A stretch of DNA of 64,000 nt from the IMG/VR virus record IMGVR_UViG_3300036760_000139, positions 1,685 through 65,684 of that record. One strand, 5' to 3'. Below the pieces are notes generated by a model, which saw only the letters and a list, made by a program, of their open reading frames with translations, made no database searches and was not told the DNA's origin. This document shows, one piece after another, positions 30,233 to 33,611 of this stretch (positions are counted from its first letter, which is position 1; each line of letters begins with the position of its first letter). Position numbers and translations under genes: made by a program. This stretch comes from a virus (lineage: Duplodnaviria; Caudoviricetes).

Positions 30233-30529
30233 ATGGAACATGACCACGTTGACATCGCTGTGGATGGCTGGAGATCCGTCATCACGCGCATCAAGCGCGC
30301 CGTGTCATGGCGGCGGACGTTGGTGACGCAGGTCATCGACCTCCAGGGACAGGTGCTGGAGTTACACCGCGCGGTCAGTGAGCCCAAGATGCGTGCGCTT
30401 ATGGACGATGTCGTGACCATGCGCTCGGACGAGATCACCAAACTCACGAACCATGCGGTGAAAGCCCTGCGGCTGCTGATTGACGCGAAAGTCATCACAC
30501 AGGAACAGGCAAACGAGGCAATCCAATGA
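30233..30529 (+). CDS. Hypothetical protein
   Basis: SD GAGGAG. Confidence 0.55.
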   Translation: MEHDHVDIAVDGWRSVITRIKRAVSWRRTLVTQVIDLQGQVLELHRAVSEPKMRALMDDVVTMRSDEITKLTNHAVKALRLLIDAKVITQEQANEAIQ

Positions 30530-32061
30530 GCGCATACTACATTGACGCTGCGGGCGACAATGAAAACTCCGGCGAATCCGAACTCCTGCCCTGGGCAACG
30601 ATTGCCCATGCTCAGGGAGAACTGACCGGCGACCAGTCCGATAATTCTCTCCTCTTCAAGTGTGGCTGTACCTGGAGAGAGGAGTTCGCGGATGGGGCTT
30701 ACGGAACGAGTGGCCATCCATTCACGATAAGTTCGTACAGCACCGGAGCGAAGCCGATCATCACCGCCTCTGATCTTTTCGCATCGTGGACAGCGGAAGA
30801 CGTTCTCTGGTATGCAACTACCGCGACGGAGCCGCAACAGGTTTTCTACGATGGCCCGAGACTCGTGCAGGTTGCGCTCAAGGCATCACTCGGGGCGGGG
30901 AAATGGTGGTGGGATTCCGCCAATACCCGGATCTACATCGGCAGTGATCCATCCGGCCACGCCCTTGAGGCAGGCCAAAGATATGGATGCCTAGATTTCA
31001 ATGGGAAGAGTTACGTCACAGTTGACGGTTTGACATTGAAGCACGGACAGAGGGATGGACTTGACCTCTACACCAGCAGTTACCTCATCATCAACAACTG
31101 TCTGATCGAGTACAACTATATCTGGGGCGTATTGCAGGATGCCAACGGGACCAAGAACAATTACAACACCTTTCACGGCAACGAGGTTTGCTACAATGGC
31201 GGTAACGGGATGGCGAACGTCGGGAACACCGATGGCCTCACCGTTTGCCATAACGAGTTCCACCACAACTGTTGCCTGTACGATTCCGGTGTAGAGGCCA
31301 GCGGTCACGAGTGGACCGGCGCGATCAGGTCACTCAATTCGAGTTGCACAAATATCGTTATTGAATACAACTTGATTCACGACAACGGGCGAACGGATAC
31401 TTACTGGTGCGGAGCCGGTGTCTGGTTCGATGGTTGTGGGGCCGGGTGCATCGTCAGATACAATCGTCTCTACGACAACAAGTTTCACGGCATCCATCCT
31501 GAGTTGACTTCTGGTGCCGCAGTCTACGGGAACGTGGTTTCAGGAACGCACGGTCTTGATGGTCACGTCGCGGGAATCTGCATCTACGGGCGATTCTCAG
31601 AGGCTCCGAGCAACAACAACCTCATCTACAACAACAGTGTCTACGGCAACGACATCGGAATCCTCGTTCGCGGAGAGACGGGGCAAAACGCCTCCGTTGT
31701 TGGCAATCTCGTCAAGAACAACATCTCCAGCGGGAACACGGTCTGCGAACTCTCCACCAAACTCGGCGGGGAGAATGACGGTTCTCTTGGGAGCGGGAAC
31801 GTCTACGAGTACAACTGTTTCGGAGCGGAAGGCTCCAACTTCATCGAGTGGGGCGACACGGTTTTCAAGGCCACCTATGATGCTTGGGAGACGGCCTACG
31901 GCGGCACGACTCATTCGATAGAGGCCGATCCACTCTTCACGAACCCCGCCGGGGGTGATTTCACACTCCAGGCGGCTTCCCCCTGCATTGACACAGGAGT
32001 GGATCTTGGGGCGACGTATCAGATGGCACTTCGGCCCGGGACAATGTGGCCGGGGCAATGA
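30526..32061 (+). CDS. Right-handed beta-helix (pectin-lyase-like) protein with an apparently incomplete C-terminal anchor domain
   Basis: YYIDAAGD..NSG...PW.T; Asn-ladder repeats; DPLF.NP...DF.L...SPCIDTG but no terminal DIGAY. Confidence 0.85.
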   Translation: MSAYYIDAAGDNENSGESELLPWATIAHAQGELTGDQSDNSLLFKCGCTWREEFADGAYGTSGHPFTISSYSTGAKPIITASDLFASWTAEDVLWYATTATEPQQVFYDGPRLVQVALKASLGAGKWWWDSANTRIYIGSDPSGHALEAGQRYGCLDFNGKSYVTVDGLTLKHGQRDGLDLYTSSYLIINNCLIEYNYIWGVLQDANGTKNNYNTFHGNEVCYNGGNGMANVGNTDGLTVCHNEFHHNCCLYDSGVEASGHEWTGAIRSLNSSCTNIVIEYNLIHDNGRTDTYWCGAGVWFDGCGAGCIVRYNRLYDNKFHGIHPELTSGAAVYGNVVSGTHGLDGHVAGICIYGRFSEAPSNNNLIYNNSVYGNDIGILVRGETGQNASVVGNLVKNNISSGNTVCELSTKLGGENDGSLGSGNVYEYNCFGAEGSNFIEWGDTVFKATYDAWETAYGGTTHSIEADPLFTNPAGGDFTLQAASPCIDTGVDLGATYQMALRPGTMWPGQ

Positions 32062-32069
32062 GGTTCTAA

Positions 32070-33611
32070 ATGGCCGACCTAACCTCTGACGTAAACCTCC
32101 AAGGACTCTGGTATCTGGAGGAAGCATCCGGGGATAGACTCGATGTCAGTGGGAAGGGGAATACTCTCACCGACACCAATACGGTGACGCAGAGCGCGAC
32201 CTGCAAACAGGGTACATACTCTGCGGAGTTCGTTGCCGCAAATAGCGAATCCCTTATCCGTGTGAGTGCCGACCTCTCGGCAGCGTTCCCCGGCAAGAAT
32301 GGGACGACTCAGTATGATTTCACCGTCGGGGCCTGGTGTCAGTTCGCCTCACATGCCGCTCGCCACACGATCATGGGGAAGGACTATTGGACGAACAACC
32401 CGTCATTCCTGTTGGAGTTCAACGAACTCGGAAGTGACCATAAATTTACTCTTGGTATGTACAATGGCGGCAATTGGCCACACATATACAGTAACACAGC
32501 GACAACATCTACTGGCACATGGTATCACGTTGTCGGTCGTTTTCAGGGTTCGACCGACAAAGAAATGTCACTCTGGATCAACGGCGTCAAGCAAACTGAG
32601 ACAGTCATCGCAACCCTTGCCGCGATAGATGCCAACGTTGGTGATTTTGTCATCGGTCAATACGGAACCGTCGGTATCTCGTTCTGGGATGGCCTCATCG
32701 ATGAGGCATTCGTCTTCAACCGAGCTCTCTCCGATGCTGAGATTCTTGGCATCTACACCGACGGGATCGCGGGTCCCGCGAGTCCCGAGGGTTCTGCCGT
32801 GATCTCTGGTGTTGGTCATGTCGTTGCGGCTGGGATCAAGTTGGCCGTGGGCGCTGCCGTTCTCTCTGCTGTAGCCACGGTGGCTGCGGCCGGAATCGCA
32901 ACCATGCCCGGAGTTGCGGCCCTCTCTGCACATGGGACCGTGGCGGCGGCCGGAGGGGGTGTACATTCGGGGTCCGCGATACTATCTGCCCATGGAACCG
33001 TTGCGGGAACCGGAACAAAGGCCGCATCGGGCAGTGCGGCGCTCAGTGCCCCCGGTGAGATCGTGGCCACGGGCAACCAGGGGGTCGTACTCGGTAGTCA
33101 GAACTCCTACGGTATCGGATGGGAGATTGGCGCATATATCTACGATGCCGAGGGGCCCTCGGGTTCCGCCGTTCTTTCTGCTGTGGGCACAATGGCTGCA
33201 GCCGGAACAAAGCAGGGCTCGGGCATTGCCGCCATCTCCACCCCTGCCCACGTTGTCGCCACTGGCACCAAGGCAACGTCCTCGGTTTCTGCCATCTCGG
33301 CCCCCGCCGAGATTGTGGCGACCGGGACGAAGGCCGACTCTGGTTCTGCCGTTCTCTCTGCTCCTGGCCACGTTGTCGGGGCCGGGACGAAGGCTGACTC
33401 CGGTTCCGCTGTTCTCTCTACTCCTGGCCACGTTGTCGCTGCCGGAGAAAAGGTCGCCCTAAGCTCTGGTGGGGTGCTACTTGCGAATCAGAATGGGTGG
33501 GGTGCCGGGTGGGACATCGGGGCCTATGTCTATGTGAGTGATGAGCAGCGGCGCCGTGGCAGTCAACACCGCAAAAGGCACAGCGGACAAATCCGCAAAA
33601 AGAAGAAATAG
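32070..33611 (+). CDS. LamG/ConA-like domain plus ten 20-aa repeats (fibre rope protein)
   Basis: GLWYLEE, WYHVV, LWING, FWDGLIDE..VFNRALS..EI; GSAxLSA repeats; two W(E/D)IGAY peptides; basic tail. Confidence 0.8.
   Translation: MADLTSDVNLQGLWYLEEASGDRLDVSGKGNTLTDTNTVTQSATCKQGTYSAEFVAANSESLIRVSADLSAAFPGKNGTTQYDFTVGAWCQFASHAARHTIMGKDYWTNNPSFLLEFNELGSDHKFTLGMYNGGNWPHIYSNTATTSTGTWYHVVGRFQGSTDKEMSLWINGVKQTETVIATLAAIDANVGDFVIGQYGTVGISFWDGLIDEAFVFNRALSDAEILGIYTDGIAGPASPEGSAVISGVGHVVAAGIKLAVGAAVLSAVATVAAAGIATMPGVAALSAHGTVAAAGGGVHSGSAILSAHGTVAGTGTKAASGSAALSAPGEIVATGNQGVVLGSQNSYGIGWEIGAYIYDAEGPSGSAVLSAVGTMAAAGTKQGSGIAAISTPAHVVATGTKATSSVSAISAPAEIVATGTKADSGSAVLSAPGHVVGAGTKADSGSAVLSTPGHVVAAGEKVALSSGGVLLANQNGWGAGWDIGAYVYVSDEQRRRGSQHRKRHSGQIRKKKK

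What the first reader, a model, noticed from the sequence alone, without database searches (positions are those of the whole stretch)
30526..33611. Possible peptide-docking fibre system: the beta-helix protein's missing C-terminal segment occurs twice inside the next gene
Seen: the beta-helix protein ends DPLF.NP..GDF.L...SPCIDTGVDLG...ALRPGTMWPGQ-stop. Known: this type of C-terminal anchor domain normally finishes with a (D/E)IGAY strand, which is absent here. Seen: the next gene contains GVVLGSQNSYGIGWEIGAYIY (33081-33143) and GVLLANQNGWGAGWDIGAYVY (33471-33533), exactly 390 bp apart, each after a block of five 20-aa repeats. Its layout is LamG, 5 repeats, peptide, 5 repeats, peptide, basic tail. 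Inference: the rope protein supplies the missing strand in trans and clips two copies of a glycan-binding or depolymerase domain onto the fibre at fixed intervals, a natural split-domain tag/catcher. The two peptides are diverged yet keep the motif, which argues for selection rather than a recent accident.
Basis: partly seen in the sequence, partly recalled or inferred. Interest (0 to 1): 0.9.

Follow-up and report, generated by a model that had tools for sequence, protein, structure and literature searches.

The report
Split enzyme clipped onto phage fibre
A phage sugar-cutting enzyme lacks the last piece of its fold, and that piece sits twice inside the neighbouring fibre "rope" protein, which most likely clips two enzyme copies onto the fibre; several unrelated phages do the same and we found no paper describing it.

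Summary
Gene A (30526-32061) is a right-handed beta-helix protein that stops at ...WPGQ. Unsplit relatives continue with V..(T/L).(D/N)Q..YG.GW(E/D)IGAY. Gene B (32070-33611) reads LamG, 5 repeats, tag, 5 repeats, tag, basic tail.

A profile of 121 normal (cis) tails hits the six-frame window only at the two B tags.

The split recurs in at least five phage lineages, and each tag supplies what its partner lacks.
- Partners ending at WP come with full tags.
- A partner ending 12 residues later comes with a half tag.
- Short-loop partners ending ...G.PI(R/V) come with PDIGAYEYQ tags.

Tags sit in ropes, in a 47-aa microprotein, and at the N-terminus of another beta-helix or of a tail protein.

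The complex model scored ipSAE 0.89 against 0.00 for the best control. This supports binding but does not show it.

B is the rope of a GP4/A1002-type chain-like fibre. A Gp80-family bead gene lies next door.

This is a new variant of a known kind. Nothing is shown experimentally. The scan noted similar plug-in tags on other DNA (e1-5658644, e1-5946231).

The parts
30526..32061 (+). Gene A: right-handed beta-helix protein (511 aa), a probable polysaccharide-degrading enzyme. Its C-terminal cap is truncated after ...WPGQ. This is the 'catcher'.
   Evidence: Pfam Beta_helix PF13229, E 1.5e-14. Homologues. Foldseek neighbours of an unsplit relative are GH120, GH136, PL9, PL6 and phage depolymerases.
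31918..32058 (+). The part of the cap present in A (residues 465-511): DPLF..GDFTL..SPCID..YQMALRPGTMWPGQ. It lacks the closing segment.
   Evidence: Weak DUF5123 match to profile positions 53-103 of 113. Alignment with unsplit homologues. Interface residues 465, 469, 479-481, 483, 485, 487-494 and 499-508 in the complex model.
32070..33611 (+). Gene B: rope protein (513 aa) reading LamG, 5 repeats, tag 1, 5 repeats, tag 2, basic tail.
   Evidence: Its frame is +2 relative to A, with TAA directly before its ATG and GAGG 6 nt upstream.
32283..32744 (+). LamG / concanavalin-like domain (residues 72-225). By analogy with the A1002 rope it is the distal tip.
   Evidence: PF13385, E 3.2e-20. Rope polarity in A1002 from PMC13730344 passages.
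32778..33077 (+). Repeat block 1: five 20-aa hairpin-type repeats (G.A.LSA.G.V.A.G....). They are inferred docking sites for Gp80-like bead dimers.
   Evidence: Inference from GP4, A1002 and Bas63 ropes.
33081..33143 (+). Tag 1: GVVLGSQNSYGIGWEIGAYIY, homologous to the closing segment that A lacks.
   Evidence: HMM of cis tails, E 6.5e-11. Complex model ipSAE 0.89 against 0.00 for controls.
33156..33455 (+). Repeat block 2: five 20-aa repeats.
33471..33533 (+). Tag 2: GVLLANQNGWGAGWDIGAYVY.
   Evidence: HMM of cis tails, E 5.8e-10. It is almost the same tag plus tail as the separate 47-aa microprotein of related phages.
33534..33611 (+). Basic C-terminal tail (VSDEQRRRGSQHRKRHSGQIRKKKK). It is inferred to be the proximal anchor.
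   Evidence: The same tail ends the microprotein in L008, L012, L013 and L015. Basic tails also end the ropes of L017 and L021. The anchoring role is inference only.
33721..34110 (+). Bead gene: Gp80-family small fibre protein (129 aa).
   Evidence: PF23140 Gp80, E 6.1e-13. PDB 8jou_a (GP4), E 0.0059. It is 51% identical to the bead domain fused to the beta-helix in L021.

Best explanation
Gene A is a beta-helix carbohydrate-active enzyme whose C-terminal cap is naturally split. The last 22 or so residues, which in unsplit relatives run back over the conserved Asn ladder and close the cap, are not in A. They are encoded twice in gene B.

B is the rope of a GP4/A1002-type chain-like fibre. It has a LamG tip and two blocks of five 20-aa repeats that probably each dock a dimer of the neighbouring Gp80-like bead. 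It ends in a basic tail that probably anchors it to the virion.

Each tag completes the fold of one A molecule in trans without a covalent bond. Each rope would therefore carry two enzyme copies at set positions between the beads.

What is shown: the split, the homology of the tags to the missing piece, the recurrence, and the tag/partner complementarity across lineages.

What is supported by a model only: that the tag sits in the cis position on A.

What is inferred: bead docking on the repeats, the 2:1 stoichiometry, the virion location, the anchoring role of the tail, and depolymerase activity.
For: 1. A ends at WPGQ, and unsplit relatives continue with the tag sequence. In an unsplit relative the segment is ordered, pLDDT 94-96 with a model mean of 95.5.

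2. The cis-tail HMM hits only the two B tags in the window, E 6.5e-11 and 5.8e-10.

3. Recurrence with complementarity.
- 6 of 8 metagenome loci (L008, L010, L012, L013, L014, L015) have a gene ending ...STWP-TGA. After 15 nt holding GAGGTGG there is a separate ORF starting with the tag. It is complete at 47 aa, with B's basic tail, in L008, L012, L013 and L015. In L010 and L014 the contig ends after 11-13 codons.
- In L008, L013 and L015 a rope gene follows that also starts with a tag. L015 has a further internal tag.
- L005 and L017 are short-loop caps ending ...GNPIR and ...GHPIV. Their next gene is a ConA-like domain plus rope carrying 3 and 1 PDIGAYEYQ tags.
- L047, on the same contig as L017, is a 911-aa tail protein with two N-terminal tags.
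- In L035 a truncated beta-helix lies next to another beta-helix that bears an N-terminal tag.
- In L054 the beta-helix ends 12 residues later (...SQEDY), and its rope carries only the half tag GGVGWEIGAYVY.
- P0148 has a tag inside the other rope family.

4. Unsplit loci have no free tags: L004, L006, L021 and 10 MAG loci.

5. The complex of full A with a 40-aa tag 1 peptide gave ipSAE 0.90/0.89/0.89, median 0.89. The best of 3 controls was 0.00.
- The mark was reached by 58 of 80 solved complexes and 2 of 110 mismatched pairs. These counts hold only roughly because my own alignments were used.
- The runs agree in at least 82% of contacts, and the partner pLDDT is at least 65.
- The interface is tag residues 10-17 and 20-32 against A 335-337, 369-371, 398-400, 429-431 and the cap.

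6. Fibre context.
- The Gp80 bead lies next door.
- Rope-and-bead fibres have been solved in GP4, A1002 and Bas63 (passages of PMC13730344 and PMC12609058).
- In L021 the unsplit enzyme is fused to a bead domain beside a rope without tags. That is another route to the same mounting.

7. The cap is constant and the body varies. The last 50 aa are 69-98% identical, while the bodies are 26-45% identical.
Against: - There is no experiment.
- The complex pass may only reflect the model's knowledge of the unsplit fold. Halves of a split domain tend to pass, and chain 1's alignment held unsplit relatives.
- Only tag 1 was tested. Tag 2, the 2:1 stoichiometry and bead-repeat docking were not modelled.
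- L009 and L011 end at WPGQ and show no tag in the 413 and about 160 nt of DNA that follow.
- B has no sequence match to a solved rope.
- No collar or adaptor homologue was found among the two window proteins tried.
- In the controls A kept pLDDT 87-90 without the tag. The model gives no sign that A needs the tag to fold.
- The microprotein form (tag plus tail, no rope) shows that a rope is not required for the pairing.
Confidence: 0.72

Rival explanations
1. Two-piece enzyme or folding helper. The tag does complete A's fold in trans, but the purpose is folding or assembly control, or regulation of activity. It is not mounting on a virion fibre. Tags in ropes would be a by-product of gene shuffling.
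For: A tag exists as a free 47-aa microprotein without a rope in L012. GH136 beta-helix enzymes are structural neighbours and need a separately encoded adjacent partner for activity (PMC7335108 passages).
Against: Tags occur repeatedly inside scaffolds with several copies per chain: B has 2, L005 has 3, L015 has at least 2 and L047 has 2. Those scaffolds sit beside bead genes. L021 reaches the same end by fusing the enzyme to a bead. The microprotein's tail is the same as the rope's C-terminal tail, which suggests a shared anchor.
Confidence: 0.13
2. Recombination scars. The tags in B are leftovers of beta-helix gene 3' ends used as crossover points between cassettes, and they do not bind. A is simply a shortened but self-sufficient protein.
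For: Contigs from other samples match up to the tag and then diverge. Loose ends at 33507-33529 in X2-X4 carry the microprotein-type or rope-type continuation. The cap is far more conserved than the bodies. A is modelled with high pLDDT even beside unrelated partners.
Against: Scars would decay. The free tags keep the same positions that are conserved in 121 cis tails, namely V, Q, G, W and IGAY. The tag supplies just what each partner lacks in three different break classes. Free tags are absent near unsplit genes.
Confidence: 0.08
3. Artefact. A's stop would be a sequencing or assembly error, or a pseudogene, or A and B would be joined by frameshifting or read-through.
For: The window's own protein A is on record from a single contig.
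Against: The same stop position occurs in 9 of 94 homologue clusters and in 8 metagenome loci. B is in frame +2 with TAA directly before its ATG. In relatives the TGA of the A frame comes before the TAG of the tag frame, so no single shift can fuse them. A 13-kb contig of X1 (possibly the source) matches with 0 differences. A 151-nt contig of a different sample (X2) bridges 32051-32201 with 0 differences.
Confidence: 0.02

Closest known systems
Chain-like ('beads on a rope') fibres: Ralstonia podophage GP4 Fiber-1 (PDB 8JOU; J Mol Biol 2023;435:168258, not held, known only through citing papers), Pseudomonas podophage A1002 (PMC13730344), Bas63 whiskers (PMC12609058)
   Same: The rope has serial short docking sites. 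A small Gp80-family bead gene is adjacent (PF23140, E 6.1e-13; 8jou_a, E 0.0059). The backbone is an SU10/GP4-like podophage with matching portal, MCP and adaptor Pfam hits. There is a terminal globular domain at the rope's N-terminus, as in A1002.
   Different: The passages read from those papers describe no rope that carries pieces of another protein's fold. Here two tags interrupt the repeats and are predicted to capture a 511-aa beta-helix enzyme. B has no sequence match to a solved rope.
Split nozzle of phage A1002 (gp39 and gp42 complete each other's platform and beta-propeller by added strands; PMC13730344 passages)
   Same: A domain is divided between two neighbouring phage genes and rebuilt in trans in the virion.
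   Different: That is a 1:1 structural core part. It is not a portable, repeated tag found on several scaffolds with interchangeable enzyme bodies.
Donor-strand complementation in chaperone-usher pili (recalled, not checked here)
   Same: An incomplete fold is completed by a short segment given by another chain. This gives very stable non-covalent assemblies.
   Different: The fold differs (Ig-like pilin against beta-helix cap). There is no chaperone or usher. The donor segments are embedded in a scaffold and are not at a subunit's end.
Branched tailspike adaptors of phages such as CBA120 and G7C (recalled, not checked here)
   Same: Several depolymerase-type spikes are mounted on one virion through dedicated docking modules. 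L035's arrangement, a truncated beta-helix beside a tag-bearing beta-helix, looks like such piggy-backing.
   Different: Known systems dock through N-terminal adaptor domains. Here the docking element is the enzyme's own C-terminal cap, completed by a roughly 12-25-aa tag.
GH136 lacto-N-biosidase LnbX with LnbY (PMC7335108 passages; structures 5gqc and 6kqt among the Foldseek neighbours)
   Same: A beta-helix glycosidase depends on a separately encoded adjacent gene product that is a structural part of the active enzyme.
   Different: The partner is a helical domain of about 220 aa that embraces the helix. It is not a terminal segment, is not repeated and is not on a fibre.
SpyTag/SpyCatcher-type engineered split domains (recalled)
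   Same: A short peptide and an incomplete domain rebuild one fold, which is useful as a clip.
   Different: Those form an isopeptide bond. Nothing here points to a covalent link, and none was tested.

Membership tests
GP4-type chain-like fibre (rope plus Gp80 beads) | Small bead protein of the Gp80 family encoded with the rope | tested here: met
   Window 33721-34110 hits PF23140 at E 6.1e-13 and PDB 8jou_a at E 0.0059. It lies 110 nt after B.
GP4-type chain-like fibre (rope plus Gp80 beads) | Rope protein or domain with serial short docking repeats | tested here: met
   Ten 20-aa repeats in two blocks of five. Related LamG-plus-repeat proteins P0096 and P0097. Ropes in L015, L017, L005 and L021.
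GP4-type chain-like fibre (rope plus Gp80 beads) | Sequence or fold homology of the rope to a solved rope | tested here: inconclusive
   No PDB sequence match for the repeat region. The AF2 model of B was unusable, mean pLDDT 34.4.
GP4-type chain-like fibre (rope plus Gp80 beads) | Bead dimers bind the rope by beta-sheet augmentation | not tested
This is inference from PMC13730344.
GP4-type chain-like fibre (rope plus Gp80 beads) | Rope anchored to a collar or fibre-tail adaptor on the neck or tail | tested here: inconclusive
   Two candidate window proteins gave no PDB match. The basic tail as anchor is inference.
Right-handed beta-helix enzymes with the DP.F / GDF.L / SP.ID / ..(D/E)IGAY C-terminal cap | Parallel beta-helix body | tested here: met
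   PF13229, E 1.5e-14. The unsplit relative's model has pLDDT 95.5 and beta-helix neighbours.
Right-handed beta-helix enzymes with the DP.F / GDF.L / SP.ID / ..(D/E)IGAY C-terminal cap | First part of the cap (DPLF, GDFTL, SPCID) | tested here: met
Right-handed beta-helix enzymes with the DP.F / GDF.L / SP.ID / ..(D/E)IGAY C-terminal cap | Closing segment ...GW(E/D)IGAY in the same chain | tested here: not met
   A stops at WPGQ. The cis-tail HMM finds nothing in A's frame and finds two sites in B.
Covalent tag/catcher (isopeptide) systems | Reactive Lys/Asp(Asn) pair with catalytic Glu that forms an isopeptide bond | not tested
   No such triad was looked for. Nothing in the data suggests one. 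The resemblance is in concept only.

The most novel reading that the evidence does not exclude
Uncultured phages share a general plug-in standard. It has two parts: a beta-helix enzyme with a deliberately unfinished cap, and a portable 12-25-residue tag that finishes it.

The tag can be written into any virion scaffold: rope 1, rope 2, a microprotein anchor, a tail protein, or another spike. Number, order and spacing of enzymes along a fibre would then be encoded as a linear string in the scaffold gene. Enzyme bodies could be swapped behind a constant cap.

At least three break classes exist, each with its own matching tag. This hints at orthogonal tag/catcher pairs that could direct different enzymes to different sites.
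Probability: 0.45. Interest if true: 0.88.

Novelty: new variant of a known kind. Interest (0 to 1): 0.8.

Why it matters
How phages attach several receptor-binding or depolymerase proteins, and how they swap them to change host range, is a central question for phage biology and for phage engineering. Known attachments use N-terminal adaptor domains or bead-to-rope sheet augmentation.

This case would add a third principle. The enzyme's own fold is left unfinished, and a short tag embedded in a scaffold finishes it.

It is directly testable with two recombinant proteins or a synthetic peptide. If it holds, it offers three things:
- natural, probably very stable, genetically encodable peptide/protein clips in several possibly orthogonal classes;
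- a way to read the composition of a fibre from sequence alone;
- an explanation for the many 'truncated' beta-helix genes in phage metagenomes that look like pseudogenes.

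Tried and rejected
- **Frameshift or read-through fusion of A and B:** rejected from the frames and stops.
- **AF2 model of B:** run with a 5-row alignment, mean pLDDT 34.4. 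It is unusable and I draw nothing from it beyond the hairpin-like DSSP pattern.
- **PDB by sequence:** the unsplit relative P0003 gave 0 hits at E up to 1. B gave only a weak LamG-type hit, 2zzj at E 0.053. Window 42556-43392 and 41248-41889, tried as possible collar proteins, gave 0 hits.
- **GenBank phages (tblastn):**
  - A had no match.
  - B had one LamG-only match, in a Nitrosopumilaceae virus.
  - No cultured relative was found, and the host is unknown.
- **NCBIfam:** nothing useful.
- **Viral contigs with B, A and rope 2:**
  - L001-L003 are LamG proteins without ropes.
  - L006 is unsplit.
  - L018 and L019 are rope-2 relatives without tags.
- **DNA pattern for YQMAL.PG..WP in viral contigs:** 0 hits.
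- **Contigs from other samples:** the parts of the stretch that X2-X4 do not cover are not evidence of anything.
- **Literature searches that found nothing on this mechanism:**
  - 'tailspike' + 'strand complementation' + 'phage' gave 0 papers.
  - 'donor strand' + 'tailspike' gave 1 unrelated paper, seen as listing only.
  - 'chain-like fiber' + 'phage' gave 2 papers. Neither described tags in the passages read.
  - 'DIGAYE' gave 7 unrelated hits, seen as listing only.
  - 'depolymerase' + 'rope protein' + 'fiber' gave 0.
- **Papers not available:** the GP4 paper (J Mol Biol 2023) is not held, so what I say of GP4 comes from passages of PMC13730344 and PMC12609058. Supplements of those papers were not opened and may hold rope sequences or details that bear on the comparison.
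- **A-1(L) neck fibre (PMC10966104 passages):** this is a different, ropeless bead chain and was set aside.

Full report
**1. What is in the window**

Gene A (30526-32061, +, 511 aa) is a right-handed beta-helix protein (PF13229, E 1.5e-14). It has a weak DUF5123 match over its last residues that stops at profile position 103 of 113. A ends ...DPLFTNPAGGDFTLQAASPCIDTGVDLGATYQMALRPGTMWPGQ, then TGA.

Eight bases later gene B starts (32070-33611, +, 513 aa). B is in frame +2 relative to A. TAA lies directly before its ATG and GAGG lies 6 nt upstream.

B reads as follows.
- LamG (PF13385, residues 72-225, E 3.2e-20).
- Five 20-aa repeats (237-336).
- GVVLGSQNSYGIGWEIGAYIY (338-358, nt 33081-33143).
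- Five more repeats (363-462).
- GVLLANQNGWGAGWDIGAYVY (468-488, nt 33471-33533).
- A basic tail.

**2. The missing piece is a normal part of the fold**

A word-based search with A residues 380-511 returned 94 proteins. In many of them the chain goes straight on after ...PGS.WP with ..V.TGDQ..(Y/H)G.GWE(I/V)GAY. A second cap type has a shorter loop...GLT.D..G......PDIGAYE.

A profile of seven tags, searched against 1.84 billion representatives, gave 242 hits at E up to 0.001.
- Of the best 150, a regex placed 96 within 60 residues after an SPxID-type motif.
- By eye most of the other 54 are the same with variant motifs, or are fragments.

An AF2 model of the unsplit relative P0003 (51% identical to A) has mean pLDDT 95.5. 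The segment itself has pLDDT 94-96. It is ordered and mostly extended, not a long classical strand.

An HMM of 121 such cis tails hits the six-frame window only at the two B tags (6.5e-11 and 5.8e-10; next hit 1.1).

**3. Not an artefact**

Nine of the 94 clusters end at the same place, WP(G)(Q/V) or WS. Two more (P0020, P0075) end 12 residues later at ...DQ..Y. P0027, P0081 and P0085 end inside the short-loop cap, but I cannot tell a stop from a contig end.

A contig of the possible source run covers 31400-33700 without a difference. A 151-nt contig from a different sample bridges the A stop and the B start exactly.

**4. Recurrence, and a tag that fits its partner**

A DNA pattern for YQMAL.PG..WP found 8 metagenome loci.

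- **Loci with a tag ORF.** In 6 of them (L008, L010, L012-L015) the beta-helix gene ends ...STWP-TGA.
  - After 15 nt holding GAGGTGG a separate ORF starts with the tag.
  - In L008, L012, L013 and L015 it is complete: 47 aa, tag (MAVI.VNQESYGMEWDIGAYVYV) followed by the same basic tail as B's C-terminus.
  - In L010 and L014 the contig ends after 11-13 codons of it.
  - The stop in the A frame precedes the stop in the tag frame, so a frameshift cannot fuse them.
- **A rope gene after the microprotein.** In L008, L013 and L015 a rope gene follows that again begins with a tag. In L015 it holds a further internal tag almost identical to B's tag 2.
- **Loci without a visible tag.** The other 2 of 8 (L009, L011) end ...TTWPGQ. 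They show no tag in the 413 and about 160 nt available downstream.
- **L005** (27% identical beta-helix) ends ...GLTEDIEGNPIR. Its next gene is a ConA-like domain plus a long rope with three (I/L)PDIG(G/A)YE(Y/N)Q tags.
- **L017** ends ...GDFEGHPIV. Its next gene has the same ConA-like domain, a rope with one PDIGAYEYQ tag and a basic tail. The same contig has a 911-aa Gly_rich_2 tail protein with two tandem N-terminal tags (L047).
- **L035/L036** have a beta-helix ending ...DDSPRPI beside another beta-helix that carries a free N-terminal PDIGAYEYQ tag and also its own cis tag.
- **L054** (27% identical) ends ...STWPFNVNTASQEDY. Its rope carries only GGVGWEIGAYVY, which is the remainder.
- **P0148** is a fragment of the window's second rope family (PTGY repeats) with a tag in place of one repeat.

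In three break classes, therefore, the free tag supplies what the partner lacks.

**5. The reverse control**

- Unsplit phage genes have no free tag in the fetched DNA: L004, L006 and L021.
- Among 20 viral loci holding PDIGAYE(Y/N)Q, 15 are ordinary cis ends. Eleven were called by regex and four by eye. The five free ones are those described above.
- Among 6 loci holding GW(D/E)IGAY(V/I)Y, 5 are cis or cis-like and one (L054) is free.
- Ten loci from bacterial and archaeal MAGs show only cis tags or none.

**6. Complex model**

The input was full-length A (94-row alignment) with a 40-aa piece around tag 1 (7-row alignment).
- ipSAE was 0.90/0.89/0.89. The best of 3 controls was 0.00.
- The mark was reached by 58 of 80 solved complexes and 2 of 110 mismatched pairs. 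These counts hold only roughly, because my own alignments were used.
- The runs agree in at least 82% of contacts, and the partner pLDDT is at least 65.
- Tag residues 10-17 and 20-32 touch A residues 335-337, 369-371, 398-400 and 429-431, which form the nearly invariant Asn ladder. They also touch the cap at 465-508.
- The flanks of the peptide are free, as an embedded tag needs.

This supports binding but does not show it. Halves of a split domain tend to pass by likeness to the whole fold.

**7. Context: a chain-like fibre**

The window is an SU10/GP4-like podophage, with matching portal, MCP and adaptor hits. Right after B lies a Gp80-family gene (PF23140, E 6.1e-13; PDB 8jou_a, E 0.0059).

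In GP4, A1002 and Bas63, dimers of such beads dock in series on a rope by sheet augmentation. GP4 has five dimers on a separately encoded rope. In A1002 the rope's N-terminus is distal and ends in a globular domain (passages of PMC13730344 and PMC12609058).

I therefore read B's two blocks of five repeats as bead sites, LamG as the tip and the basic tail as the proximal end. All three are inference.

L021 gives independent support that the enzyme belongs on the rope. There an unsplit beta-helix is fused to a bead domain (PF23140, E 1.1e-11; 51% identical to the window's bead). It lies beside a free bead gene and a rope without tags.

**8. Cassette pattern**

Among the window and seven relatives the beta-helix bodies are 26-45% identical, while the last 50 residues are 69-98% identical. 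Contigs from other samples match up to the tag and then continue as the microprotein form or the rope form. A constant dock with exchangeable bodies is what a mounting standard predicts.

**9. What the enzyme is**

Foldseek neighbours of the unsplit model are GH120 XylC, GH136 lacto-N-biosidases, BT_1002, pectate lyase Pel9A, PL6 lyases and phage capsule depolymerases. It is a carbohydrate-active beta-helix, but substrate and chemistry are unknown. GH136 enzymes need a separately encoded adjacent partner (PMC7335108). That is a loose precedent for two-gene beta-helix enzymes.

**10. Limits**

- There is no experiment.
- Only tag 1 was modelled.
- The B model was useless.
- L009 and L011 are unresolved.
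- No cultured relative was found.
- The L008-L015 loci are close relatives, probably from one campaign, so I count them as one lineage. I count about five lineages in all: the window group, L005, L017, L035 and L054.

**11. Novelty**

The fibre type is known. A rope or other scaffold carrying detached closing segments of a beta-helix cap as docking tags was in none of the papers found by five searches, nor in the passages read.

Earlier notes of this scan describe similar plug-in tags on other DNA (e1-5658644, e1-5946231). I did not test those.

My verdict is a new variant of a known kind, with high interest.

Noticed in passing
L021:5948-8113 (viral contig), next gene 8133-9758, free bead 5315-5644: This is an unsplit beta-helix with a ConA-like domain inserted inside its cap, between DPKLVD and DDFHLQSDSPC. 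It has a cis tag (NPCIGAFEF) and a C-terminally fused Gp80 bead domain. It lies beside a free bead gene and a rope without tags. It is an alternative way to hang the enzyme on a rope.
   Followed up: partly
L035:1497-4715 (- strand; same sequence in L036): Two adjacent beta-helix genes. The first carries a free N-terminal PDIGAYEYQ tag and also its own cis tag. The second is truncated (...DDSPRPI). This suggests spike-on-spike piggy-backing through the same tag system.
   Followed up: partly
L047:2870-5602 (same viral contig as L017): A 911-aa tail protein with a Gly_rich_2 domain starts with two tandem tags (APDIGAYEFQ..VPDIGAYEYQQ). It lies directly after a tape-measure-like gene.
   Followed up: partly
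window 35540-35947 and 36935-37882: There is a second fibre module. The small protein (phrog_644) matches PDB 9d93 'Tail wing arm, gp31' at E 4.8e-8. The 315-aa PTGY.D.D.FG repeat protein is probably a second rope. A relative's fragment (P0148) has an IGAY tag in place of one PTGY repeat.
   Followed up: partly
window 34117-35535; also L005:4633-5811, L017:978-2588, L035 (reverse strand, 8934-10253 in the reverse-complement coordinates): A glycosyltransferase-like (phrog_1574) plus class-I methyltransferase (PF13578) fusion gene keeps company with the fibre module in four divergent phages. It may modify the fibre or a glycan.
   Followed up: no
window 45737-48667: A second, conventional tailspike candidate of 976 aa, with an Mtd_N N-terminal domain and a pectate-lyase-like region.
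   Followed up: no
window 33400-33630 (reads): Contig depth in three other sediment samples is many times higher over tag 2 and the basic tail than over the rest of B. Loose ends lie at 33507-33529. The tag-plus-tail module is shared by several co-occurring phage variants.
   Followed up: partly
L027:4911-6643 (MAG contig): The bacterial homologue is broken into two overlapping frames. This is a frameshift or an assembly error. Its cap is unsplit with a cis tag.
   Followed up: no
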